Shown here: positions 813 through 53,289 of the stretch, one piece after another | How the letters are laid out: each line of letters starts with the position of its first letter | How positions within the stretch are numbered: position 1 is the stretch's first letter | DNA from: Candidatus Wolfebacteria bacterium RIFOXYB1_FULL_54_12 | GTDB taxonomy: Bacteria; Patescibacteriota; Minisyncoccia; UBA6257; UBA9933 | DNA: 64,000 nt | Direction of reading: 5' to 3' | Assembly (NCBI GenBank): GCA_001793895.1 | Contig: MGIT01000001.1 | Span: 106,508 to 170,507, forward strand | The notes under the pieces: model-generated | What the model saw: the letters and a program-made list of their open reading frames with translations, nothing else | What the model was told of the DNA's origin: nothing | Database searches by the model: none | Made by a program: the position numbers and the translations under genes

Positions 813-1958
813 TCATAAATTCAAATCCCCATTCGCCTCAATTTTATACTTCTTGCCACGCAAATAGTCGATATATCCCGAAACGGCAATCATCAACGCA
901 TTATCGGTAGAAAATTCGCTCACGATCAACAGTGGTCGATCTTTCTTTAGCGTGAACTTCTTTTCGATTGCTTCCGTAAACAAAGCACGCAAGGTGCGGT
1001 TGGCCGAAACTCCGCCCGAGATCATAATGGACTTCGCACCGAATTCTTCTACCGCGCGGAGCGTCTTTTTGATCAGTACATCCGCCGCCGCCTTTTGAAA
1101 ACTCGCGGCAATATCCGCTTTCGGAATACTTTTCCCCGCTTTCGTCAGATCGCGGATATAATACAGCACAGAGGTCTTCAGGCCGGAAAAACTGAAATTA
1201 TAATTTTTATGCCCGATCATCGGACGCGGGAAATCGATCGCCATCGGGTTGCCATCTTTCGCCAAGCGTTCGATTTCAGGCCCGCCCGGATACGGGAGGC
1301 CAATCAAACGCGCAACCTTGTCGAACGCCTCCCCCACCGCATCGTCAACCGTCTCGCCCAATTTTTTAAAATGGGTCAGGTCGTCCATTCTCAACAAAAT
1401 GGTATGACCCCCGCTGATGATCAACGCGATCGCGGGGAATATCCCCGCATTGTCATTCCCGCGGAGGCGGGAATCCACATCCTTACTTACCAAAAAACTA
1501 TATAAGTGCCCCTCCAAATGATTAGTGGGCACCAGCGGCTTGCCATATTTGGCCGCAAGCTCCTTTGCAAATTCAATGCCGGTCCACAATGCAGGTTCCA
1601 AACCAGGCCCAACGGTCACGGTAATGAAATCTACCCGATTCATAAAATCAGCCTCCCCCGCATTGTCATTCCCGCCCTTCTCTTTGTCATTCCCGCGGAG
1701 GCGGGAATCCACCACTATTTTATCAACAATCTCTTTAAATAATAGTGGCAAATTCTCCAAATGCGCGCGCTTTGCCAATCCCGGCACTACGCCGCCATAC
1801 GGCTGGTGCAGCTTGATCTGCGACGCGACCACATCGCCATGTACCTCAAACTTCGGCTTTTCCAAACCCCCGCTCGCCGTAACAAAAGAAAGGGCTGTTT
1901 CATCACAGCTCGTTTCAATCGACAAGATATACACCTTTTGTTTCTTCTCTAAAGACAT
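813..1958 (-). CDS. tsaD: tRNA N6-adenosine threonylcarbamoyltransferase TsaD (Kae1/Gcp family) carrying two repeat-derived in-frame insertions
   Basis: Family motifs seen: ILSIETSCDETA, TVTVGPGLEPAL, NHLEGH, ISGGHT, SGGVSAN. The peptide DSRLRGND occurs twice. Confidence 0.93.
   Translation of the reverse strand: MSLEKKQKVYILSIETSCDETALSFVTASGGLEKPKFEVHGDVVASQIKLHQPYGGVVPGLAKRAHLENLPLLFKEIVDKIVVDSRLRGNDKEKGGNDNAGEADFMNRVDFITVTVGPGLEPALWTGIEFAKELAAKYGKPLVPTNHLEGHLYSFLVSKDVDSRLRGNDNAGIFPAIALIISGGHTILLRMDDLTHFKKLGETVDDAVGEAFDKVARLIGLPYPGGPEIERLAKDGNPMAIDFPRPMIGHKNYNFSFSGLKTSVLYYIRDLTKAGKSIPKADIAASFQKAAADVLIKKTLRAVEEFGAKSIMISGGVSANRTLRALFTEAIEKKFTLKKDRPLLIVSEFSTDNALMIAVSGYIDYLRGKKYKIEANGDLNL
1451..1476. 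repeat. GTCAT-hairpin unit inside the tsaD CDS
   Basis: The sequence tgtcattcccgcggaggcgggaatcc, read on the minus strand in the tsaD frame, gives VDSRLRGNDNAG. Confidence 0.9.
1664..1710. repeat. GTCAT-hairpin unit plus a half unit inside the tsaD CDS
   Basis: The sequence tgtcattcccgcccttctctttgtcattcccgcggaggcgggaatcc encodes VDSRLRGNDKEKGGNDNAG in the tsaD frame. Confidence 0.9.
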
Positions 1959-7586: not shown

Positions 7587-7613
7587 AGGGTTCCCTCACA
7601 GAATCCTTTTTTG
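7587..7613 (-). terminator. Terminator downstream of the tRNA-like RNA
   Basis: The stem agggttc/gaatcct contains one G-T pair. The loop is cctcaca, with A and T runs on both sides. Confidence 0.65.
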
Positions 7614-7631
7614 TTTATTCAAATCCCTTTC

Positions 7632-7783
7632 GGTGCCGCGGGAGGGAGTTGCCTACAAGTCTCGCTTCGCCGCCGCTCAGCGAGCTCGCAGGCCGCCCCT
7701 CGCGATGTGCCCTGCTGGGCCGCATATCGCTGCGGTCTTAAACTCCCCACGCGGGCAAAGCAGTTTGCCCGCTCCACGGCACC
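7632..7783 (-). ncRNA. Candidate 152-nt structured, tRNA-Phe-derived tRNA-like RNA (identity unknown)
   Basis: The 3' end CAACTCCCTCCCGCGGCACC is identical to the tRNA-Phe 3' end. The 5' GGTGCCGTGG pairs with the 3' CCGCGGCACC over 10 bp. GGGAGTT pairs with AACTCCC. Internal hairpins are GGGCAAA-CTGC-TTTGCCC, CCGCA-GCGATA-TGCGG and CTCGCT...AGCGAG. Confidence 0.45.
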
Positions 7784-7790
7784 AACCAGA

Positions 7791-7826
7791 TAAAAATAAA
7801 AAACATACTCCTCACAAGTATGTCTT
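7791..7826 (-). terminator. Terminator after tRNA-Phe
   Basis: The stem is acatact/agtatgt with loop cctcaca, followed by a T-run on the minus strand. Confidence 0.7.
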
Positions 7827-7850
7827 TTATTTTATTCAAATCCCTTTCGG

Positions 7851-7922
7851 TGCCGCGGGAGGGAGTTGAACCCCCGACGCTTGCCTCTTCAGGGCAACGC
7901 TCTACCGCTGAGCTACCGCGGC
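7851..7922 (-). tRNA. tRNA-Phe (GAA)
   Basis: Reverse complement: GCCGCGGTAGCTCAGCGGTAGAGCGTTGCCCTGAAGAGGCAAGCGTCGGGGGTTCAACTCCCTCCCGCGGCA. The anticodon arm is TTGCC-CTGAAGA-GGCAA. Confidence 0.9.
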
Positions 7923-15406: not shown

Positions 15407-15470
15407 ATAGTTACAGTATACTACGCTTTTCAGCAACATTTTCTTTCAGAGCTGTGCCATCCCCGCGCTC

Positions 15471-15654
15471 TGTCATTCCCGCGGAGGCGGGAATCTATTT
15501 AATACTGGATTCCCGCCTCCGCAGGGATGATACCGTCTCTAATTAATACATTACTCAGCGCATTGTCATTCCGGCCTAAGCCTGTCCGCCAACTGGAGGA
15601 AGCCGGAATCTTGTTGAAAGAACTCGAGATCCCGTGTCGAGGCACGGGATGACA
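15471..15654. repeat. Cluster of about four GTCAT-hairpin units
   Basis: The units are tgtcattcccgcggaggcgggaatc, ggattcccgcctccgcagggatga, tgtcattccggcctaagcc...ggaagccggaatc and gagatcccgtgtcgaggcacgggatgaca. Confidence 0.9.
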
Positions 15655-16073: not shown

Positions 16074-16116
16074 ATCACTTAAAGATACCTGAAGACCCTT
16101 AAAATGTCAACAGAAT

Positions 16117-16189
16117 TGTCATTCCCGCGAAGGCGGGAATCCACTACGTTCATATAGATCCCTCCGCCAGTCGGCGGACGGGAATGACA
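16117..16189. repeat. Composite GTCAT-hairpin repeat
   Basis: tgtcattcccgcgaaggcgggaatccac...gatccctccgccagtcggcggacgggaatgaca. Confidence 0.9.
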
Positions 16190-19219: not shown

Positions 19220-19264
19220 AAAACAAAAACCATGCATTAAAATGCATGGTTTTTGTTTTTGTGG
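19220..19264. repeat. 45-bp direct repeat, left copy (hairpin plus cca-proximal flank)
   Basis: The sequence aaaacaaaaaccatgcattaaaatgcatggtttttgtttttgtgg matches 21890-21934 at 41/45 positions, and the last 24 are identical. Confidence 0.85.
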
Positions 19265-19408
19265 TGTTTGTTTGAAAAAGTCAGAACCCATTTTGAGAAA
19301 GATCCCTAACCGCTCCGCTCGGGGTGCGGCGGAAAAAGAAAAAAAAAATTAGGGAGGCGGGAAGAATCCCGCGCCGTCCGAGTTAAAAAATTGGCACTGG
19401 GCGAATTT

Positions 19409-21829
19409 CTAATAAGTCGAATAGGCGTAGTCAAACACGGCATGAGCTACTGTCTCTAAACTTTTAGCACTACATTTATCGAGCGTATCGCCAGTCGTAT
19501 GATATGGCGGGTATTCAAAATCAATCAACAGGAAACTCGGAATTCCAGCTCGATTGAGCGGGGTGTGATCATCTTGGACACTTTGCCCAACCTTATCTTG
19601 AAAAACGTGGCTGTCCACTTTTTGCGCAATACTCCAAAATGCGTCCGCTTGAGACTGGGCATTTTGCACGGATGATTGCTCCTTGTAAATTCTCAAGTCT
19701 TTATCGCACACCATATCAAGAACAAGTGCGGATACCGGTATATTATTCCCATAAAGTTCGCTCAAATGTTCGGAAAAATAAGTAGAACCGAGAGGTCTCC
19801 AATTGCTATAATCACTGCCTTGATTTATATCTCCCTCTTCTCCATCAAAGAAAACGATGTCCACGCCAACACTCGGTATCACATGAGAATTGCCGAGTAT
19901 CCGCGCTAATTCCACAAGGACGGCAACACCCGAAGCAGAGTCGTTGCCCCCTGGCACTGGTTGATCTTTGTATACGTGATCCTTATCCGCAAGTTTTTTA
20001 CTGTCATAATGTGTCGCTAAAATAATGCGCCGTTCTTGGGTTGGGTATAGACGGCCTATGATATTCGATAATTTATGGATTTTACCGTCTGTCCCTTTGT
20101 AATCCCACGATTGTGTAATTACTTCGTTGGTTTGTTCTTTCATCTCCGCAATTAGAAATTTCTGCACGTTTTCATGCCCGGGTGCGCTCATGTGGCGCGG
20201 CCCATACCTTAGTTGTTGGTTTATCACGGCAAGCATTTCGTTGCCATCAATAAACGGTTTTTCCTTAAAAGTACGCCGGAGAACTTCGGACGTTAAGTAC
20301 TCAACCGGAGAAAAATTGTCGGTGAGAATTGGGTATGGAGACAAATTAAATCTGTCCAAGTTGATAACTTTATTTCGAAGCGAGCTAATGATTGAGTTCT
20401 CATTTTGCAGAATTGAAGCCGCGCTCAAATCAATTTTTTTATTACCATTCCATCCAACCAAAATAATATTTTGGGAATCTGTTTTTCCGGGAGTTTCAAC
20501 CGCAAAAAAATAACTATTTGGAAAAACACTTTGAAAAGTTTTTATCTCCGCAAAAATAAGAGATGGCTCTTGTCTTGATAAATCTCCGATTAAATTAGCG
20601 ATAAACAATCCATCGTCAGATAATTTCTCTTTTGCGATGGTAAAAAATTCCTGCGTTGTAAAGTGAGCAGGAATGGAAAAAAGAGAATGGTACGCATCGC
20701 TAAATATAAAATCATATTTTTTATTCGAATCCCAAAGCAGGCGACGACCATCTTCAGTATAATTGTATAGATTTGAATTGTCTTCTACGGCAAAATATTC
20801 TTTTGCTAATGCCAATAACGATGGTTCAATTTCTGAAACATCGAGTGTCGCGTTTGGCAACTCCGCTAAAAGGGCCTTCGGTATAGAATATGCGCCACCG
20901 CCTATAACTAAAGCATTTCGTACGTCCGGCTTGAAAACTTTGTAGAGAGAATAGTATTTCGTGTATTCATAAACGAGATCGGCCGGGTTATCCGAATCGA
21001 GAAACATCGCACCGGAACCACTCCGATCCTGTTGAAAAAATCTTGTCGGCCTGCTTTCAAACATACCATCGTAGATGGTGATTTTTTCGTAAATACCATC
21101 TTTGCTGTACAATACATCGCCTTTTGTTTGCTGAACCGCAACAATGGTAATAAGGGCTAAAGTGACAACGGCAACCAAAGACTGGGTTAGGCGTTTTTTG
21201 TCAAAACCAAATACCGTAAGTGGGATAAATCCGAGAAGGAAGAGAACAACTCCTGTGGCAATAAAAATATGGTCTATGCCAAAATTAGGTATAAGCACAA
21301 AACCCGCAAGTAGACTGCCAATGATACTCCCCAGAGTAGACCAAAAAAATATTTTACCCGAAACACTTCCCACTCCCTGCTCTGGTGCTTGAAGACTCTG
21401 TAATTTTATAGCATAGGGCGACAAAGTGCCGAGCAATAACGCAGGAACAAGGAACAGCAGCAAAGAAGAGATCAGTGGTCCGCTTGTAAGTGAAAGATTT
21501 TTGCTTAAAATTGGAAGAATTATCAAACCAAAAAAATGAAATACAAGGACAAGAAGACCGCTTACGAGAATTATCCCGAAGAACCACCGTAACGATGGGT
21601 GACGATCTGCAAATTTTCCGCCCACATAATATCCTATGCTAAGAGCTGCGAGTATAACACTTATTATACTTGATACAGTAAAAATTGTGTTTCCATAGTG
21701 AGGCGAAAGGACACGGACGGCAACGACTTCAATAATCAAAACACACGCCCCAGTGATAAATACTGAGATTGGCAGCAAATTTTGCTTTAAAAATTTGTTC
21801 ATGTATTTAATCATGGTAGCAGTTTGCAT
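19409..21829 (-). CDS. Fusion protein: polytopic membrane spermidine-synthase-like domain plus M28 peptidase/glutaminyl-cyclase-like domain
   Basis: The N-terminus has about 7 TM helices. The SAM-fold motif is ALVIGGGAYSIP. The C-terminal M28 motifs are ATHYDS, GGNDSASGVAVLVELARIL, FFDGEEG and DDHTPL. Confidence 0.8.
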   Translation of the reverse strand: MQTATMIKYMNKFLKQNLLPISVFITGACVLIIEVVAVRVLSPHYGNTIFTVSSIISVILAALSIGYYVGGKFADRHPSLRWFFGIILVSGLLVLVFHFFGLIILPILSKNLSLTSGPLISSLLLFLVPALLLGTLSPYAIKLQSLQAPEQGVGSVSGKIFFWSTLGSIIGSLLAGFVLIPNFGIDHIFIATGVVLFLLGFIPLTVFGFDKKRLTQSLVAVVTLALITIVAVQQTKGDVLYSKDGIYEKITIYDGMFESRPTRFFQQDRSGSGAMFLDSDNPADLVYEYTKYYSLYKVFKPDVRNALVIGGGAYSIPKALLAELPNATLDVSEIEPSLLALAKEYFAVEDNSNLYNYTEDGRRLLWDSNKKYDFIFSDAYHSLFSIPAHFTTQEFFTIAKEKLSDDGLFIANLIGDLSRQEPSLIFAEIKTFQSVFPNSYFFAVETPGKTDSQNIILVGWNGNKKIDLSAASILQNENSIISSLRNKVINLDRFNLSPYPILTDNFSPVEYLTSEVLRRTFKEKPFIDGNEMLAVINQQLRYGPRHMSAPGHENVQKFLIAEMKEQTNEVITQSWDYKGTDGKIHKLSNIIGRLYPTQERRIILATHYDSKKLADKDHVYKDQPVPGGNDSASGVAVLVELARILGNSHVIPSVGVDIVFFDGEEGDINQGSDYSNWRPLGSTYFSEHLSELYGNNIPVSALVLDMVCDKDLRIYKEQSSVQNAQSQADAFWSIAQKVDSHVFQDKVGQSVQDDHTPLNRAGIPSFLLIDFEYPPYHTTGDTLDKCSAKSLETVAHAVFDYAYSTY

Positions 21830-21889
21830 ATGATTAGTCTATCCGCCATTGTATTTTTTAAGCGAGGACTATTTTCAAAATATTTCACA

Positions 21890-21934
21890 AAAACAAAGAC
21901 CACGCATTTTAATGCATGGTTTTTGTTTTTGTGG
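21890..21934. repeat. 45-bp direct repeat, right copy; also the terminator hairpin after tRNA-Ala
   Basis: The sequence aaaacaaagaccacgcattttaatgcatggtttttgtttttgtgg overlaps the last 3 nt of tRNA-Ala. Confidence 0.85.
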
Positions 21935-22002
21935 ACCTAGGCGGAATCGGACCGCCGTCTCAGCAATGCGAATGCCGTGTTCTACCACTAGACTATAGGC
22001 CC
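21932..22002 (-). tRNA. tRNA-Ala (CGC)
   Basis: Reverse complement: GGGCCTATAGTCTAGTGGTAGAACACGGCATTCGCATTGCTGAGACGGCGGTCCGATTCCGCCTAGGTCCA. The G3:U70 identity pair is present, and the anticodon loop is TTCGCAT. Confidence 0.88.
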
Positions 22003-44015: not shown

Positions 44016-45317
44016 ATGCGTACGACAATCCGTCTTCACTGCGCAATAACGCCCACCCCCATCATGCAAACCATCCGAACAACGACCGGCATCCTTATCG
44101 CAGCCCCGCTTCTTTTTTGGGGTGGATGGAACATCGGCAAAGCGGTCTATCCGGAACCCGCACAACAACTGGCGGCACAGTCGCAAGTGGCGACACTTTC
44201 ACGCCGGCTGATCGCCATGTCGCAAGAAGAAACACAAAAGAACATTTGCGCAGAAACGCTGCAATTGGCAGACGAAGCCGACCGGCATTACTGTTTTGAA
44301 GCCCCAAAATTGACCGAACAAAAAGGAGCGCAGATCGATCTTACGACGCAAAAGATTATTTTGTTTGAAAACGGAAAGATCGTCGACATACTGCCCGTCG
44401 CCTATCAATCGCCGGAAAACGTATGGTTTCAAACGCCGACGGGTTACTTCCGCGTGGGGTTTATGAACGAAAAGCACCGGTCTTCATTGTTTCCGGTCAA
44501 TATGCCCTATGCGATCCAGATAACCGAAGACTTTTTCATGCATGAGATCCCATTTTATGACGATGGCACAAAAGTGACATCGAAGTTCAGCGGCGGATGC
44601 CTGCGCTTCGAAACGGATATCGCAAAACGCTTGTTCGCTTTTTTGGATCGCGGCGACCAGCTTGTCATTTATAAGACCTTCGGAGACCGAACGATCAAAC
44701 CGACCTTACATGCGCCTGTAGCCATGGATCAATTCTGGATTCGTCAGCGGTTCTATAGCCCATTGCGATCCTTGTGGAATTACTCGGGTAACCTCGACAA
44801 ACTCATGCTCGATTACGATGAACACGCGGGCGTAGACCTTGCTCCGAACCGCGATGCGACGAACCTTAGCGCATATGCGATAACTGACGGAACGGTCATG
44901 CGAGTACAACCGAACGATGGAACGGATCATGGCATGGGAGCAACGGTCATCGTCGAACACACTATTGACGGGAAAACGCTTTACGGCGTCTATGCGCATC
45001 TTGCCTCGATAGCCGCATCGATCACGGAAGGCTGCACGGTACACGCCGGCGACACACTCGGAACGGTCGGTAACAGCGCCTATGACTGCCAAAACAACTG
45101 GAAAGTCGGTACCGATGGATGCGACAGCACCAACCCTGATGACATTCATTTGCATTTTGAATTGAAGACGAAGCCGGTATTGGAAAATCCCGAAGGCGAC
45201 GAAGCATGCAAACTGAAGACGACAGGCGAACCGCACGCGTGTTATGGCTACACGCCGGGCGATCCGCGCGATTACGGCTACCTCGATCCGATCAAGGAGC
45301 TATTCGATAAACAATGA
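44016..45317 (+). CDS. Fusion of an L,D-transpeptidase (YkuD) domain and an M23 (LytM) metallopeptidase domain
   Basis: YkuD: FMHEIPFYDDG...SGGCLRF. M23: HAGVDLAP, YAHL and HLHFEL. An alternative start lies at 44064. Confidence 0.8.
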   Translation: MRTTIRLHCAITPTPIMQTIRTTTGILIAAPLLFWGGWNIGKAVYPEPAQQLAAQSQVATLSRRLIAMSQEETQKNICAETLQLADEADRHYCFEAPKLTEQKGAQIDLTTQKIILFENGKIVDILPVAYQSPENVWFQTPTGYFRVGFMNEKHRSSLFPVNMPYAIQITEDFFMHEIPFYDDGTKVTSKFSGGCLRFETDIAKRLFAFLDRGDQLVIYKTFGDRTIKPTLHAPVAMDQFWIRQRFYSPLRSLWNYSGNLDKLMLDYDEHAGVDLAPNRDATNLSAYAITDGTVMRVQPNDGTDHGMGATVIVEHTIDGKTLYGVYAHLASIAASITEGCTVHAGDTLGTVGNSAYDCQNNWKVGTDGCDSTNPDDIHLHFELKTKPVLENPEGDEACKLKTTGEPHACYGYTPGDPRDYGYLDPIKELFDKQ

Positions 45318-45326
45318 GTTTCAATT

Positions 45327-45496
45327 TGTCATTCCGAGCCTGCTGTCATCCTGAACTCGTTTCAGGATCTCGCGTACAAACAGTGAGCTTCTGAAATAAA
45401 TTCAGAATGACACTTTAAAAAATATTGTCATTCCCGTCCGCCCACCAGCAGAGGAATCCAGTACCCCGCATTGTCATTCCCGCGAAAGCGGGAATC
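45327..45496. repeat. Cluster of about five GTCAT-hairpin units
   Basis: tgtcattccgagcc; tgtcatcctgaactcgtttcaggatc; ttctgaaataaattcagaatgaca; tgtcattcccgtccgcccaccagcagaggaatcc; tgtcattcccgcgaaagcgggaatc. Confidence 0.9.
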
Positions 45497-45513
45497 TAGT
45501 ACACTAAAAAAGG

Positions 45514-46236
45514 ATGTACCAAATAAACACCGCACAATTCACCGGCCCCATAGAAACACTGCTCGAAATGATCGAGGCGCGCAAATTGGAGATCACACAA
45601 GTGAGTCTTGCTTTGGTGACCGATGATTTTCTTAAATTCGTACAGGAAATGAATCTGTCGGGCAAGGAGCGCAACGAAGCGGAAATTCGGTTTCTTTCGG
45701 ACTTTGTCGCAATCGCATCGCGCCTATTATTGATCAAATCAAAAGCACTTCTTCCCTCGCTTGAATTATCGACTGAAGATCAGGAAGATATCAAAGATCT
45801 CGAACATCGCTTGAAGTTCTACCAACAATTCAAACCTGCCATGGTACATGTAAAAACGCTCTATGAACAAGAATCGGTGGCGGTCGCGCGTCCGCTTTTG
45901 CTCGGCCGGCCGACCATTTTCTACCCATCACCCGAAATAACACCGTCAACAATGCACGCGGCGATGGCAACCCTATTCGAAACCCTTAAAGCCGCGGCAC
46001 TTGAGTTCAAAAAGGTTGAGAACACGGTAGTAAGGCTCGAAGAAAAGATCGAGGAAATACTCATGAAGGTTACTGCGGGCATAAAAAGCTTCGGCAACCT
46101 GATCAATGAAAAATCAAAGAAGGAGGTCGTGGTCCTCTTTCTTGCGCTGCTTCACCTGCTACGCGACCAACATATTCACGTGGAACAACCCGACCGCTTC
46201 GGCGACATCGCCATCAAAAAATCCCCCCACGAATGA
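45514..46236 (+). CDS. scpA: Segregation and condensation protein A
   Basis: The N-terminus contains FTGPIETLLEMIEARKLEITQVSLALVTDDFLKFV. Confidence 0.88.
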   Translation: MYQINTAQFTGPIETLLEMIEARKLEITQVSLALVTDDFLKFVQEMNLSGKERNEAEIRFLSDFVAIASRLLLIKSKALLPSLELSTEDQEDIKDLEHRLKFYQQFKPAMVHVKTLYEQESVAVARPLLLGRPTIFYPSPEITPSTMHAAMATLFETLKAAALEFKKVENTVVRLEEKIEEILMKVTAGIKSFGNLINEKSKKEVVVLFLALLHLLRDQHIHVEQPDRFGDIAIKKSPHE

Positions 46237-46243
46237 TGCGGAT

Positions 46244-46291
46244 AAAAAACGCTTAATAATATTGCTATAGCAATATTATTAAGCGTTTTTT
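46244..46291 (+). terminator. Long perfect hairpin after scpA
   Basis: aaaaaacgcttaataatattgc-tata-gcaatattattaagcgtttttt. Confidence 0.8.
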
Positions 46292-46339
46292 ATTTCAGAA
46301 TTTCTCTGACTCTTGTCGCAGTCATCCATGTCACCGCCC

Positions 46340-46393
46340 TTATACCCTTTGGTGATAGAATATATCCACGATCAGGCGGTTATCGGGTTTCAT
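46340..46393. repeat. Displaced 54-bp copy of the SDR gene 3' end (direct repeat of 47039-47092)
   Basis: The copies match at 51/54 nt. The displaced copy still reads MKPDNRLIVDIFYHQRV-stop on the minus strand, against ...MKPDNRLIVDTFYHQRV-stop in the SDR gene. Confidence 0.9.
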
Positions 46394-46394
46394 A

Positions 46395-47021
46395 TTACAT
46401 CGGTATTAGTTTAGCGCCCTCACTTTGTATCTTCTTATATATTCTTTCTATTCCATCAATATGTCTCACCCCTCTTTCATTATTACCCGCTTGCGCTTCA
46501 TGAATATTTTTTATCCAATCTTTTAACATTAGGATGCCTCCTTGCTTAATCAACTCATAAAGATCCTTTGGTTTCACCATAATTACAAGAGACTCTCCTA
46601 ATTTATTAATTCCACTCTCATACTCATCAACTTCTTTATCAGAAAATTTATTCGACGCCAGCGCCATATAAATACCATCACTTTCATTAGATAACCCGAA
46701 GAAATGGACTAAGGAATTTCTAAGATGCCAAAGACGTTCACTGCTTAATTTATGCCACCGTGTATTTTTAACATATTCCACATTTTGGCCTATTAAACAA
46801 AATGTACGGAGCCAAGAAGTAAACCGCTTGCTTTGTGTTTCGCATTTTCCATCATATTCATACCAGTAACTTGCAAGAATATCTAACAAGCTAAAAACAA
46901 TTATCGCTTGAATTCTAGGAGAAGAAGGATAATCACATAAAAAAATACTGTTGATATCTCTTATCACATCGTTAATGAAATCAACCACCTCCTTCTTCCG
47001 CTCATTATGCTTTTCAATCAT
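46395..47021 (-). CDS. Hypothetical protein with an Rx4H motif (HEPN-like, tentative) on an AT-rich cassette
   Basis: The motif WHLRNSLVHFFGL (R-N-S-L-V-H) lies in a helical protein. The gene is visibly AT-rich. The ORF nearly fills the 645-bp insert. The ATG at 47021 is preferred over the TTG at 47030. Confidence 0.6.
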   Translation of the reverse strand: MIEKHNERKKEVVDFINDVIRDINSIFLCDYPSSPRIQAIIVFSLLDILASYWYEYDGKCETQSKRFTSWLRTFCLIGQNVEYVKNTRWHKLSSERLWHLRNSLVHFFGLSNESDGIYMALASNKFSDKEVDEYESGINKLGESLVIMVKPKDLYELIKQGGILMLKDWIKNIHEAQAGNNERGVRHIDGIERIYKKIQSEGAKLIPM

Positions 47022-47038
47022 TTGAACCAAATATAATA

Positions 47039-47770
47039 TTATACCCTTTGATGATAGAATGTATCCACGATTAGGCGGTTATCGGGTTTCATTTCTCCGA
47101 TGACCGTCTTGTAAATGACCTCCGCGACATCTGCGGGCGTATGGTGCGCCTCTGTGCCTTTGAACAGTTCTTTGAACATGTTCGTCCCTACTGACCCGGG
47201 GGTAATGGTGATCACATCGATCCCCGACTGCACCAGCTCGGCCGACAACGCCTGCGTAAACGCGATCACGCCGGCCTTGGTCGCCGAATAGACGGCAAGC
47301 TCGGGAATGCCACAGAGTCCCGCTCCCGATGAAATATTAATGATGCATTTTCGTTTCACGGTACAACCGTCATGATCGGTTTCCGCAACGCCGGTATCCA
47401 TGCTCTTCAAAGCCTCCTGCGTAACAATAAACATGCCGCCCAGGTTCACATTGACCATGCTTTGCCACTCGGCTTCCGTCGTATCCGCAAATCGCTTGCG
47501 CTGGGCAACGCCCGCATTGTTGATAAGCACATCGATGCCGCCAAAACGCTTCTTCGCTTCCGCAATGGCAAGGGCGACCTGCGCCCGATCGCACACATCC
47601 CCTTCTATGACCAATGTGCGATCAATAGGAAGCGTCATCGCTTCCGAGCTTGTCGCACCATGGGAATAAATGACAACATTCGCACCTTCGGCAATGAACT
47701 TTTTCGCGGTTTCCAATCCGATGCCCGTCGCCCCACCGGTAATGAATACTGTCTTTCCTTTGATATCCAT
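47039..47770 (-). CDS. Short-chain dehydrogenase/reductase (SDR)
   Basis: It contains ITGGATGIGLE (TGxxxGxG), NNAG and YSATKAG (YxxxK). The ATG at 47770 is preferred; the longer ORF reads into a repeat. Confidence 0.88.
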   Translation of the reverse strand: MDIKGKTVFITGGATGIGLETAKKFIAEGANVVIYSHGATSSEAMTLPIDRTLVIEGDVCDRAQVALAIAEAKKRFGGIDVLINNAGVAQRKRFADTTEAEWQSMVNVNLGGMFIVTQEALKSMDTGVAETDHDGCTVKRKCIINISSGAGLCGIPELAVYSATKAGVIAFTQALSAELVQSGIDVITITPGSVGTNMFKELFKGTEAHHTPADVAEVIYKTVIGEMKPDNRLIVDTFYHQRV

Positions 47771-47796
47771 AATGGTATTAGTATAGCATAACTTTT

Positions 47797-47904
47797 TGTC
47801 ATTCCGGCGGAGGCCGGAATGACAACATAAGAAGTTTGTCATCCTGAACTCGTTTCAGGATCTCATGGTAGTGCGATGAGATTCCGGCCTCCGCCGGAAT
47901 GACA
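47797..47904. repeat. Three GTCAT-hairpin units
   Basis: tgtcattccggcggaggccggaatgaca; tgtcatcctgaactcgtttcaggatc; gagattccggcctccgccggaatgaca. Confidence 0.95.
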
Positions 47905-48016
47905 AATGCGCGGTTCTATTAATAGAACCGCGCATTCACCACCCTCCCACAAAAACAAAGAATCCGCTCGTCCATCAAATGGCGGACGAACAGATCCGGT
48001 AGAATTTCGCATCCCT

Positions 48017-48045
48017 GTTATTAGTTATAGGTTGCTGGTTGTTAG
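48017..48045. repeat. GGTTAT-type repeat
   Basis: gttattagttataggttgctggttgttag. Confidence 0.7.
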
Positions 48046-48048
48046 CCT

Positions 48049-48091
48049 GAAGTCAAATAAAAAACGCCTATGGCGTTTTTTATTTGACTTC
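48049..48091 (-). terminator. 20-bp perfect hairpin overlapping the rplK stop
   Basis: gaagtcaaataaaaaacgcc-tat-ggcgttttttatttgacttc. Confidence 0.8.
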
Positions 48092-48502
48092 GATTCCCAT
48101 CGATCGGGCTGCGCCCTTGATGATCTTTGCGGCCTGCTCGACGTCTTCAGTGTTAAGATCCACCATTTTCTTTTCGGCGATCTCACGCACCTGCGCCTCG
48201 GTAACGGTTCCCACCTTGATCTTCAGCGGATTCGCCGATCCCTTGGCGACGCCTGCCGCTTTGCGCAACAGATCGGATGCCGGGGAGGTCTTCAGCTTGA
48301 AGTCGAAGGTTCGATCTTCATAGATGTTGATCTCTGCGGGAATGATGCTTCCGACCATATCTTTGGTCGCTTCGTTGAACTGCTGGCAGAACTGCGCGAT
48401 ATTCACGCCGTGCTGACCCAATGCCGGACCAATCGGAGGAGCAGGGTTTGCCGCGCCACCCGGGATCTGAAGCTTAATGATAGTTTTGATTGCTTTTGCC
48501 AT
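48080..48502 (-). CDS. rplK: 50S ribosomal protein L11
   Basis: The N-terminus is [35 protein letters not shown]. Confidence 0.95.
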
Positions 48503-51494: not shown

Positions 51495-51538
51495 GTCTTA
51501 GAAAATAAAAGGCCATTGTCTGGCGCTTATGTAAATTC

Positions 51539-51564
51539 TGTCATTCCCGCGGAGGCGGGAATCC
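51539..51564. repeat. Single GTCAT-hairpin unit
   Basis: tgtcattcccgcggaggcgggaatcc. Confidence 0.9.
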
Positions 51565-51653
51565 ATTACCATTATGATAGCAAAAACGAGCCAAAAAAGC
51601 CAGCGGCCAGAGGAGTAAAGCCCCTTCAAAACAACCGGGACGCTACAACAAAA

Positions 51654-52323: not shown

Positions 52324-52426
52324 GCCCACACCCTCCTCTTTCTATGGATATATATGTAAAATAAGAGCTAACTCAAACTAACACCTGCGTTGCGCACTGT
52401 CAAACGATATTTAAAAAAATATTTTG

Positions 52427-52497
52427 AGCGGGTAAAGGGAATCGAACCCTCGCTTCAACCTTGGGAAGGTTGCGCACTACCACTATGCAATACCCGC
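52427..52497 (-). tRNA. tRNA-Gly (CCC)
   Basis: Reverse complement: GCGGGTATTGCATAGTGGTAGTGCGCAACCTTCCCAAGGTTGAAGCGAGGGTTCGATTCCCTTTACCCGCT. The anticodon arm is CAACC-TTCCCAA-GGTTG. Confidence 0.88.
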
Positions 52498-52748
52498 AAA
52501 AACGATACAGGCATTATAAAGAACAACCGGACAAAAGTGAAGTCATGGAAATAAAAAAACGACCTCTATGGTCGACGCGAATAAAGAAAACAAACCCGGT
52601 TGATGGCGATCGAACGAACCCAGTATTCCACGCAAGAAGAATGTAAGAATTCCCATATGAAATTGTCTGCCCATGCGCACAATAAAATACTGTATTTAGT
52701 ATAGGGCAACCAAATAAGATATACAACACCCGCACACCTTTTCTGTAA

Positions 52749-53289
52749 CCCCGGCGGAGCTCGCCACGTGGAAAGTAGAAACTTTCTTTACGTGGGCCGG
52801 AGGAGTCCAGCGTTTTCCGCGATAGCGGTAGCTGGACATTCAGACCCTAACAATGCCGGGAATGACGATGCGAGATTGGGTGTCATCCCCGTCCGTCCGC
52901 CAGCCGGCGGACGGAGGGATCCATGGTTTTTGCAGTAGTAGGGCTGGGATACCCAGACTCTGGATTCCCGTTTTCACGGGAATGACAATACCGAGGTGAC
53001 AAAGCAAGAAAATACTCATACAAAAAGGTTGTGACCCCGGCGGAGCTCGCCACGTGGTCCGCCAATGGCGGATCGGAATGACACCATCCACGCATTGTCA
53101 TGTCGACGCCTACCCGCCTTGGTCGGGAAGGCCGGTATCCGGTGTCTTGCATTGTCATTCCGAGAGTAGCGGAGCGGAGCCAAGGAATCTGTTTTTAGTA
53201 CGGATCCCTGCTCCACCTCCGCCAGCTGGCGGATATGGCGGCACGCGGTCGATTTAATTCCGCTTCGCTATATTGCACTCGGGATGACA
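52749..53289. repeat. About 540-bp non-coding tract built from degenerate GTCAT-hairpin units plus a 23-bp duplicate
   Basis: Units include ccgggaatgac, tgtcatccccgtccgtccgccagccggcggacggagggatcc, ctggattcccgttttcacgggaatgaca, ggatcggaatgaca, tgtcatgtcgacgcc, tgtcattccgagagtagcggagcggagccaaggaatc and ctcgggatgaca. The 23-mer ccccggcggagctcgccacgtgg occurs at 52749 and at 53035. Confidence 0.85.

What the first reader, a model, noticed from the sequence alone, without database searches (positions are those of the whole stretch)
46340..47092. A tight AT-rich cassette encoding an Rx4H (HEPN-like) protein, inserted at the 3' end of an SDR gene with a 54-bp target duplication
The last 54 nt of the SDR gene (47039-47092, encoding MKPDNRLIVDTFYHQRV-stop) are repeated at 46340-46393. 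The copies match at 51/54, and the displaced copy is still in frame as MKPDNRLIVDIFYHQRV-stop. The 645 bp between them are strikingly AT-rich. They consist almost only of one ORF, with 1 nt after its stop and 17 nt before its ATG. The 208-aa helical protein contains WHLRNSLVHFFGL, an R-x4-H motif with Asn after the Arg. That is the signature of HEPN RNases used in abortive-infection and toxin systems. Restoring the 3' end of a protein-coding target while displacing the original is typical of site-specific integrative elements, but no integrase or antitoxin is present. This may be a cassette mobilised in trans, or a minimal defence islet.
Basis: partly seen in the sequence, partly recalled or inferred. 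Interest (0 to 1): 0.75.

Follow-up and report, generated by a model that had tools for sequence, protein, structure and literature searches.

The report
HEPN RNase gene inserted after SDR
A small, AT-rich foreign gene for a predicted HEPN-type RNase (a probable defence or toxin-like enzyme from a family with no database annotation) was inserted right after a dehydrogenase gene of a Wolfebacteria genome, duplicating 54 bases of the target; the insertion is real, but nothing shows that it is a self-mobile cassette.

Summary
A 54-nt direct repeat (51/54) brackets 645 bp of 34% GC DNA in a 50% GC genome. That DNA holds one 208-aa ORF, 17 nt after the SDR stop codon and 1 nt before the second repeat copy. 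A sister species (Wolfebacteria RIFOXYD12_FULL_48_21, about 92% nt identity) has the empty site: one 54-mer, then the same spacer, terminator and scpA. So this is a 699-bp insertion with target duplication, not a decayed second SDR gene.

The mobile-cassette reading is not supported. There is no recombinase and no attC. Other lineages carry unrelated genes at this site without repeats, and most relatives elsewhere lack flanking repeats. One relative, and a second low-GC gene in this window, do show 42-45-nt flanking repeats. The integration mechanism remains open.

The parts
47039..47770 (-). Target gene: short-chain dehydrogenase/reductase (SDR, 243 aa), intact
   Evidence: Pfam adh_short, E 7e-51. 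Orthologues of 72-95% aa identity are 243 aa long or within five residues of that, and 17 of the 18 end in HQRV or a one-residue variant (HERV, HQMV, HQRA).
47039..47092 (-). Repeat copy 1 (DR1): the last 17 codons plus stop of the SDR gene, now in use
   Evidence: It carries one private synonymous change (CTA) relative to DR2 and three outgroups.
46394..47038 (.). Inserted foreign DNA, 645 bp, GC 0.338
   Evidence: Absent from sister species L016/L061. blastn alignments of the two flanks both end on the single 54-mer of L016. Composition.
46395..47021 (-). ORF for a 208-aa HEPN-superfamily protein (P0001; NCBI 'hypothetical protein A2333_00460')
46704..46721 (-). Codons for R101-N-S-L-V-H106, the predicted RNase active-site motif
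   Evidence: R and H are each kept in 120 of 121 members. Position 102 is N, C or S in 116 of 121.
46340..46393 (-). Repeat copy 2 (DR2): displaced, non-functional copy of the SDR 3' end
   Evidence: It carries a private non-synonymous change (Thr to Ile). It is contiguous with the spacer that follows the SDR stop in the empty site.
46242..46293 (.). Host bidirectional terminator hairpin (26 + 26 nt, perfect), shared by the SDR-HEPN unit and convergent scpA; not part of the insert
   Evidence: (I2). The stretch 46242-46290 is 100% identical in the empty-site genome (49 nt).
47038..47067 (-). Promoter-like match TGGATA-18-TATAAT; the -10 hexamer is completed by the first base of the insert. Consensus match only.
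   Evidence: 2 sites found against 4.7 expected in shuffles, so not significant. DR2 and the empty site read TATAAG at this place.

Best explanation
Shown: in the lineage of Candidatus Wolfebacteria RIFOXYB2_FULL_49_7, 645 bp of foreign low-GC DNA was inserted at the 3' end of the SDR gene. The insertion duplicated the last 54 nt of that gene. The SDR ORF stays intact on copy 1, and copy 2 is a relic.

Inferred from sequence, model and family: the cargo is one gene for a stand-alone HEPN-superfamily protein. It has a four-helix core with a helical insert. An acidic residue (D/E47) sits in helix 2, and R101-N-x3-H106 sits at the end of helix 3. A beta-hairpin and C-terminal helices follow, much as in AbiV.

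Inferred function: it is most likely a metal-independent endoribonuclease that acts as a dimer, as a single-gene defence or toxin-like enzyme. It would be kept harmless until triggered, or be checked by an unidentified RNA or host factor.

Inferred expression: it has almost no 5' leader and no terminator of its own. It is probably read through from the SDR promoter and ended at the host terminator.

Inferred origin: it is not self-mobile. The duplication is most simply the by-product of a single recombination event, later fixed in the species. One route is a single crossover between the chromosome and a small circular molecule carrying a short stretch of SDR homology. Others are one-sided-homology illegitimate recombination or template switching.
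For: Insertion:
- The empty site is present in L016/L061. The flanks are 91-93% identical, and both alignments end on the one 54-mer.
- All contigs read that carry the identical SDR or P0001 also carry the insert, and the ten loci examined have identical repeats. The contigs come from several samples.
- DR1 and DR2 share A6 and A33, which all three outgroups lack. Each copy also has a private change, synonymous in the used copy and non-synonymous in the relic.
- Composition is foreign: GC 0.34 against 0.50, and GC3 0.30 against 0.55-0.62.

HEPN assignment:
- N80, R101 and H106 are each kept in 120 of 121 members, and D/E47 in 119 of 121.
- In the model (pLDDT 96.7, pTM 0.91) the motif lies at the C-terminal end of helix 94-107, followed by a loop. 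That is where PMC3710099 places Rx4-6H, with a polar residue after the R.
- Individual members give marginal hits to four Pfam HEPN families. The RiboL-PSP alignment ends on the motif histidine.

Stand-alone status: the upstream and downstream neighbours differ in all nine contexts examined.

Recombinase-free route: single crossovers of circular molecules that carry partial homology leave the insert flanked by a duplication of the homologous segment (PMC3240628).
Against: - No curated HEPN model reaches its threshold.
- RNase activity, dimerisation and any defence phenotype are untested.
- There are no homologues in the phage, plasmid or viral-contig collections, and no PADLOC hit. The defence role therefore rests on analogy alone.
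- The repeat ends exactly at the stop codon. That is what an element-borne copy evolved to restore the gene would look like, and a one-off accident does not predict it.
- A relative in another genome (L013), and a second low-GC gene in this window, are also flanked by 42-45-nt repeats. This hints at a recurrent mechanism.
Confidence: 0.6

Rival explanations
1. It is a site-specific integrative cassette, or the stripped remnant of a larger integrative element. Its attP mimics the last 54 nt of the SDR gene, and a recombinase encoded elsewhere moves it.
For: - The repeat reconstitutes the 3' end of the target gene and stops exactly at the stop codon.
- The cargo is foreign in composition.
- A homologue in L013 sits in a 0.36-GC segment between 42-nt repeats in a 0.48-0.51-GC context.
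- A second low-GC gene in this window (19409-21829) lies between two copies of a 45-nt hairpin next to tRNA-Ala.
- The cargo is a tightly packed ORF with no room for a promoter of its own, like the defence cassettes of chromosomal integrons (10.1101/2024.07.02.601686, listed; abstract only).
Against: - No recombinase is adjacent, and there is no attC-like palindrome or terminal inverted repeat inside the 645 bp.
- The same site is empty in L016. It holds unrelated native-GC genes without repeats in L115 and L017.
- Five of the seven family contexts with DNA readable on both sides have no flanking repeat.
- DR1 and DR2 share lineage-specific substitutions.
- All contigs read for this species carry the insert with identical repeats, and no excised variant was seen.
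Confidence: 0.22
2. The gene is a housekeeping or regulatory RNA-processing HEPN protein of Patescibacteria, for example a ribosome-associated RNase. On this view it is not a defence or toxin gene, and it spread by ordinary horizontal transfer.
For: - 25 of 121 members carry an N-terminal SEC-C zinc motif. From my own knowledge, this motif mediates ribosome and SecB binding in SecA.
- The gene is fixed and intact in the species, although the neighbouring relic repeat has changed.
- It sits in housekeeping neighbourhoods: rplK-SDR-scpA, after a PBP, and after tRNA and ribosomal-protein genes.
Against: - Distribution is patchy. It is absent from the sister species and from two other Wolfebacteria lineages at this locus.
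- GC is always low (0.31-0.36), whatever the host GC (0.34-0.51).
- Context varies in every case. These are the marks of an accessory, horizontally moving gene.
Confidence: 0.15
3. The 54-nt copy is the remnant of a second, decayed SDR gene or of a local tandem duplication, and the ORF between the copies is incidental.
For: The displaced copy is still in frame.
Against: - The sister genome has a single 54-mer directly joined to the same downstream spacer.
- No SDR similarity exists upstream of the relic copy.
- The intervening ORF has 217 family representatives with conserved catalytic residues.
Confidence: 0.02

Closest known systems
AbiV (Lactococcus), a stand-alone HEPN RNase of an abortive-infection / type III toxin-antitoxin system (PDB 9bj5; bioRxiv 10.1101/2024.05.05.592566)
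   Same: - Length is about 200 aa, built on a four-helix HEPN core with extra helices.
- An R-N-x-H-type motif lies mid-protein (AbiV 91-RNHKSKH-97; here 101-RNSLVH-106).
- A beta-hairpin lies downstream of the motif (AbiV 141-151; here strands 117-121 and 145-149).
- It is a single protein gene without a protein partner.
   Different: - There is no sequence match to any curated HEPN or Abi model, AbiV included.
- Identity is only 10%.
- The spacing here is strictly Rx4H.
- AbiV needs the abiV2 RNA antitoxin. The 645-bp insert here has no room for a separate RNA gene.
- No phage phenotype is known.
HEPN toxins of HEPN-MNT (type VII) toxin-antitoxin pairs (PDB 8xdj, 7ae2, 5yep)
   Different: - No MNT nucleotidyltransferase gene lies next to this gene in any of the nine contexts.
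- This protein is about 70-80 residues longer, with an inserted hairpin and two long C-terminal helices.
Genomic islands and integrative elements that insert into the 3' end of a gene and carry a replacement 3' end (tRNA/tmRNA-type att sites)
   Same: - An imperfect direct repeat of about 50 nt reconstitutes the target's 3' end.
- The cargo has foreign base composition.
- A displaced original end remains.
   Different: - There is no integrase, and the insert is only 645 bp.
- The target is a protein-coding gene of a single lineage.
- No second occupant or second occupied genome was found.
- The repeat copies are each other's closest relatives.
Campbell-type single crossover, or homology-facilitated illegitimate recombination, of incoming DNA (PMC3240628)
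   Same: This route needs no dedicated recombinase. It leaves the insert flanked by a duplication of the short homologous segment.
   Different: - The duplications reported there are 109-950 bp; here it is 54 bp.
- The donor molecule is hypothetical.
- This route does not explain why the repeat ends exactly at the stop codon.
Integron gene cassettes carrying streamlined defence genes
   Same: The cargo is a single ORF packed to within a few bases of its boundaries, with no room for a promoter of its own, and is expressed from upstream.
   Different: There is no attC, no intI and no cassette array. The boundaries are copies of the target gene, not of a recombination site.

Membership tests
HEPN superfamily (Anantharaman et al. 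2013, PMC3710099) | Conserved Rx4-6H motif with a polar residue (N/D/H) after the R | tested here: met
   R101 and H106 are each kept in 120 of 121 members. Position 102 is N in 75, C in 24 and S in 17.
HEPN superfamily | Motif located at the end of core helix 3 and the start of the following loop | tested here: met
   In the AF2 model (pLDDT 96.7), helix 94-107 ends with R101..H106 and is followed by a loop at 108-116. Helices 63-91 form an insert between helix 2 (35-57) and helix 3, as the family description allows.
HEPN superfamily | Up-and-down four-helix bundle fold matching solved HEPN domains | tested here: inconclusive
HEPN superfamily | Conserved acidic residue in helix 2 near the active site | tested here: met
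   D/E at position 47 in 119 of 121 members, inside helix 35-57. It is not in the Ex3[KR] form.
HEPN superfamily | Significant sequence match to a curated HEPN model | tested here: not met
   No Pfam, NCBIfam or PADLOC hit for this protein. Other members give only marginal hits to HEPN_Cthe2314, HEPN_Apea, pEK499_p136 and RiboL-PSP (E 0.006-0.02).
HEPN superfamily | Metal-independent RNase activity from a composite dimer active site | not testable with these tools
   This needs biochemistry or a dimer structure.
HEPN-MNT or other protein toxin-antitoxin pair | Conserved adjacent antitoxin gene | tested here: not met
   Neighbours differ in every context: SDR, two unrelated TM proteins, a PBP, a 220-aa protein with no Pfam hit, or none.
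Site-specific integrative element at a gene 3' end | Direct repeats (attL/attR) that include the target's 3' end, with an empty attB in relatives | tested here: met
Site-specific integrative element at a gene 3' end | An integrase or recombinase, carried by the element or demonstrably acting in trans | tested here: not met
   None lies within the 645 bp or among the adjacent genes. The rest of the genome was not available.
Site-specific integrative element at a gene 3' end | Recurrent use of the same att site (other genomes, other cargo, or excised forms) | tested here: not met
   L016/L061 are empty. L115 and L017/L062 hold unrelated genes without repeats. All contigs read for this species are occupied, and the ten loci examined have identical repeats.
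Integron cassette | attC recombination site at the 3' end of the ORF and an intI/attI platform | tested here: not met
   Only 1 nt separates the stop codon from the repeat copy. No imperfect palindrome belongs to the insert.

The most novel reading that the evidence does not exclude
Some Patescibacteria may gain single accessory genes through a cassette-like route that needs no element-encoded recombinase. The route would duplicate about 40-55 nt of the sequence at the 3' end of the upstream gene, keeping that gene and its terminator in service.

Three cases fit. The first is the HEPN gene here (54 nt). The second is its homologue in L013 (42 nt). The third is the low-GC 806-aa gene at 19409-21829 in this window (45-nt hairpin next to tRNA-Ala).

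The HEPN family would then be a recurrent, possibly selfish or defensive, cargo of that route.
Probability: 0.15. Interest if true: 0.7.

Novelty: new member of a known kind. Interest (0 to 1): 0.42.

Why it matters
- It adds a well-defined family to the HEPN RNases, one that current annotation resources miss. The family has 217 representative clusters, invariant N, R and H residues, and a confident model. The few members that carry an organism name are all from Patescibacteria, whose defence and toxin repertoire is poorly known.
- The locus is a clean natural before-and-after pair: occupied and empty sites in species that co-occur in the same groundwater sample. It can be used to study how reduced genomes take up single genes without disrupting neighbours.
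- If the long target duplications prove to be recurrent, they would point to an undescribed integration route.
- As it stands, the insertion is one fixed event and the function rests on analogy.

Tried and rejected
Protein searches with no useful result:
- Pfam, NCBIfam and PADLOC gave no hit for the protein. PHROGs gave one weak hit of unknown function.
- A Pfam scan of a family consensus sequence added nothing.
- Profile searches of PDB sequences returned only spurious matches (NQO1, a designed repeat protein).
- Foldseek against PDB found nothing with E below 1. The afdb50 library was unavailable.

Mobile-element collections:
- tblastn against the phage and plasmid collections found no match.
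- A viral-contig scan with alignment A1 found no relative.

RNA: Rfam over 45000-48500 gave only sub-threshold miRNA-like matches to the terminator hairpin.

Repeats and neighbours in related loci:
- Flanking repeats were sought in seven family contexts readable on both sides. Only the window and L013 have them.
- The partner proteins of L011 and L012 are not homologous to each other and have no Pfam hit. A conserved two-gene system is therefore rejected.

Ideas considered and dropped:
- A resemblance of the left junction (GGGTATAA|TATTATATTTGGTTCAAAT) to a dif/Xer site was judged by eye only. The similarity is weak and the sequence is AT-rich, so I did not pursue it.
- The promoter-like TGGATA-18-TATAAT at the junction is not above shuffle expectation.
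- Mismatch counts in sliding 90-nt windows across the SDR gene against L016 are uneven and highest in the last window, but with so few mismatches per window no mosaic could be called.

Full report
**1. Observation**

The window comes from Candidatus Wolfebacteria RIFOXYB2_FULL_49_7; the 208-aa protein is NCBI 'hypothetical protein A2333_00460'. The repeat is as described. Positions 46340-46393 and 47039-47092 match at 51/54, and chance expects about 4e-18 such pairs in 64 kb.

On the minus strand, copy 1 (DR1) is the last 17 codons plus stop of a 243-aa SDR gene (Pfam adh_short, E 7e-51). Copy 2 (DR2) reads the same peptide with Thr changed to Ile. The other two differences are synonymous.

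The 645 bp between the copies have GC 0.338. The window has GC 0.496, and 645-nt windows have sd 0.040, so this is the lowest value in the window. GC3 is 0.30, against 0.62 for SDR and 0.55 for scpA.

The segment holds one ORF (47021..46395). It has 17 nt before its ATG and 1 nt after its stop. RNSLVH is encoded at 46704-46721.

**2. It is a real insertion**

A scan of one genome per species with the SDR protein found two close relatives, and the same two loci turned up in JGI metagenomes.

In Wolfebacteria RIFOXYD12_FULL_48_21 (L016, identical in L061) the SDR gene is 94% identical in protein. It ends in a single 54-mer that runs straight into the spacer, the perfect 26+26-nt terminator hairpin and the convergent scpA gene, which lie downstream of DR2 in the window.

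blastn aligns window 47785-47039 to L016 3989-4732 (91.2%). It aligns window 46393-45514 to L016 4679-5557 (93.2%). Both alignments end on the same 54 nt of L016. The event is therefore a 699-bp gain: 645 bp of foreign DNA plus one extra copy of the target. The 'decayed second SDR gene' alternative is excluded.

All contigs read that carry the identical SDR or the identical 208-aa protein have the insert. The ten loci examined have identical repeats. The contigs come from several samples. One of them (L111) comes from the same JGI sample as the empty-site species (L061). The insert is therefore fixed in this species.

**3. History of the repeat**

I aligned the two copies with three outgroups (L016, L115, L017). 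DR1 and DR2 share two substitutions (A6, A33) that all outgroups lack. DR1 has one private synonymous change. DR2 has one private non-synonymous change. The third difference is ambiguous.

The copies are thus each other's closest relatives. That fits duplication of the lineage's own sequence, or a donor from the same lineage, followed by divergence. Selection would then act only on the copy in use. It argues against an attP imported from a distant host, though an element long resident in this lineage is not excluded.

The copies differ at 3 of 54 sites, against 62 of 732 across the SDR gene between the two species. The event is therefore not recent, yet the ORF is intact with every family-conserved residue. 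This suggests that the gene is maintained by selection.

**4. The same site in other lineages**

- In L115 (SDR 86% identical) a 139-aa ORF with no Pfam hit sits between SDR and scpA; I take it for a membrane protein by eye. It has native GC and no repeats.
- In the complete genome GW2011_GWB1_47_1 (L017/L062) a 161-aa protein with no Pfam hit and a PNPOx-family protein follow SDR, again without repeats.

The SDR-scpA spacer is a variable spot. I found no second occupant bracketed by the 54-mer.

**5. The protein**

Word-indexed searches found only six relatives. An exhaustive profile search of 1.84 billion representatives found 217 proteins at E of 1e-3 or better, and 46 at 1e-30 or better. 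The named members come from Wolfebacteria, Buchananbacteria and 'Patescibacteria group'.

In an alignment of 121 full-length members:
- N80, R101 and H106 are each kept in 120 sequences.
- Position 102 is N, C or S in 116.
- D/E47 is kept in 119, and E/D22 in 116 of 120.

With this alignment AlphaFold2 gives pLDDT 96.7 and pTM 0.91. The model reads as follows:
- helix 2-28;
- helix 35-57, which carries D47;
- a helical insert at 63-91, which carries N80;
- helix 94-107, which ends with R101..H106;
- a loop, a two-stranded hairpin (117-121 and 145-149) enclosing helix 128-141, and two long C-terminal helices.

This matches the published HEPN description. [quoted passage not shown] It also notes an acidic residue in helix 2 and inserts between helices 2 and 3 (PMC3710099).

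The scores are low, and DinB-like bundles are interleaved among the hits. Foldseek finds nothing with E below 1. No curated model reaches threshold. Only marginal single-member hits to four Pfam HEPN families appear, one of which ends exactly on the motif histidine.

I conclude that this is a divergent, unannotated HEPN family. Fold-level membership is likely but not proven. Twenty-five of the 121 members add an N-terminal SEC-C zinc motif; the window protein does not.

**6. Context of relatives**

Nine contexts were read. The neighbours differ in every one:
- SDR (window);
- two mutually unrelated upstream proteins that I take for membrane proteins by eye (L011, L012);
- a PBP whose stop lies 1 nt before the ATG (L103);
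- a 220-aa protein with no Pfam hit (L107);
- or no close neighbour.

There is no conserved protein partner. The gene is usually appended within 0-17 nt of an upstream gene.

Its GC is 0.31-0.36 whatever the host GC (0.34-0.51). It is absent from the phage, plasmid and viral-contig collections.

Flanking repeats were sought in every context with DNA on both sides. Only the window (54 nt) and L013 have them. In L013 the repeat is 39-42 nt at 86-87% identity and bounds a 0.36-GC segment in a 0.48-0.51-GC contig.

**7. How it most likely works**

Shown: the insertion, the target duplication, its fixation in the species, and conservation of the catalytic-type residues.

Inferred:
- The protein is a metal-independent endoribonuclease, active as a dimer like other HEPN proteins.
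- The best functional analogue is AbiV. It is a roughly 200-aa stand-alone HEPN RNase with a mid-protein RN..H motif and a dimerising beta-hairpin. It degrades rRNA in vitro and is restrained by an RNA antitoxin (10.1101/2024.05.05.592566).
- With a 17-nt leader and no terminator of its own, the gene is probably co-transcribed with SDR and ended at the host hairpin. A junction-created TGGATA-18-TATAAT is only a consensus match.

For integration I favour a single recombinase-independent event. Single crossovers between a chromosome and a circular molecule carrying partial homology leave exactly this architecture (PMC3240628). One-sided-homology illegitimate recombination or template switching would also do.

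The main rival is a trans-mobilised cassette, or the remnant of a larger element. Three things keep it alive. The repeat ends exactly at the stop codon. L013 shows a similar architecture. A second low-GC gene in this window lies between 45-nt repeats (section 8).

**8. Second case in the window**

The 806-aa ORF at 19409-21829 (minus strand) combines an N-terminal region with a sub-threshold MFS_1 match, a spermine-synthase domain and an M28 peptidase domain. It lies in the only other strongly low-GC stretch of the window, at 0.36-0.41.

It is bracketed by two copies of a 45-nt hairpin (19220-19264 and 21890-21934, 91% identical). The hairpin occurs nowhere else in the window. One copy abuts the 3' end of tRNA-Ala. 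I could not look for an empty site.

**9. Verdict**

The HEPN reading is well supported at motif and topology level. The 'mobile cassette' reading is unproven and, on present evidence, less likely than a single fixed event.

In kind, this is a new family within a known superfamily, delivered by an insertion whose mechanism is unresolved.

Noticed in passing
window 19220-21934: The second low-GC segment of the window (GC 0.36-0.41 against 0.50) holds one 806-aa ORF on the minus strand at 19409-21829. The protein combines an N-terminal region with a sub-threshold MFS_1 match, a Spermine_synth domain and a Peptidase_M28 domain. Two copies of a 45-nt hairpin flank it (19220-19264 and 21890-21934, 91% identical), and the hairpin occurs nowhere else in the window. 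One copy abuts the 3' end of tRNA-Ala(cgc) at 21931-22002. The architecture is the same as for the HEPN insert.
   Followed up: partly
L013 189-1135 (GCA_044343095.1, JAZHCL011221823.1): A homologue (P0006, 43% identical) lies in a 0.36-GC segment bounded by 42-nt direct repeats (86% identical; 189-230 and 1094-1135). The surrounding contig has GC 0.48-0.51. The repeat contains TTGACA and lies upstream of a trypsin-TPR gene. This may be a second insertion with a long target duplication.
   Followed up: partly
window 1450-1478, 1684-1712, 15470-15498, 16116-16144, 45471-45499, 47796-47824, 51538-51566; also 47795-47906: A dispersed palindromic element, TTGTCATTCC(C/G)GCGGAGGC(C/G)GGAAT(GACAA), is present in at least seven places; those near this locus lie between genes. 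It includes a 26-nt perfect inverted pair upstream of the SDR gene. A second 28-nt element, TGTCATCCTGAACTCGTTTCAGGATCTC, occurs at 45344 and 47837. Both look REP- or MITE-like.
   Followed up: no
L006 1-2411 (ENA ERZ28563792, scaffold_371): A strain with the same SDR-HEPN arrangement has a gyrB gene interrupted by an intein (Intein_splicing domain, 1099-aa product). In the window gyrB is 667 aa and has no intein.
   Followed up: no
L103 4997-5003 (ENA ERZ25039512, contig_30050): Another homologue (P0222, GC 0.31 in a 0.49-GC locus) starts 1 nt after the stop codon of a class A penicillin-binding protein gene, with no flanking repeat. The last 25 nt or so of the PBP gene are also AT-rich, so the insertion may have replaced its 3' end.
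   Followed up: no
L011 4829-6645 (GCA_042570545.1): Here the homologue overlaps (ATGA) an upstream 179-aa ORF that I take for a membrane protein by eye. The pair sits just downstream of a cluster of four tRNA genes (Thr, Tyr, Thr, Trp). L012 has a different 209-aa ORF, also membrane-like by eye, in the same upstream position.
   Followed up: partly
family alignment A2 (25 of 121 members): Many relatives carry a roughly 40-residue N-terminal extension with a SEC-C zinc-binding motif (PF02810). I have not seen this fusion described for HEPN proteins, and PMC3710099 does not mention it. It may point to ribosome association.
   Followed up: partly
window 7608-7651 / 7825-7868 and 52744-52771 / 53030-53057: Two further short direct-repeat pairs (44 nt at 95%, and 28 nt at 96%) lie near tRNA genes (tRNA-Phe at 7849-7922, tRNA-Gly at 52426-52497).
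   Followed up: no
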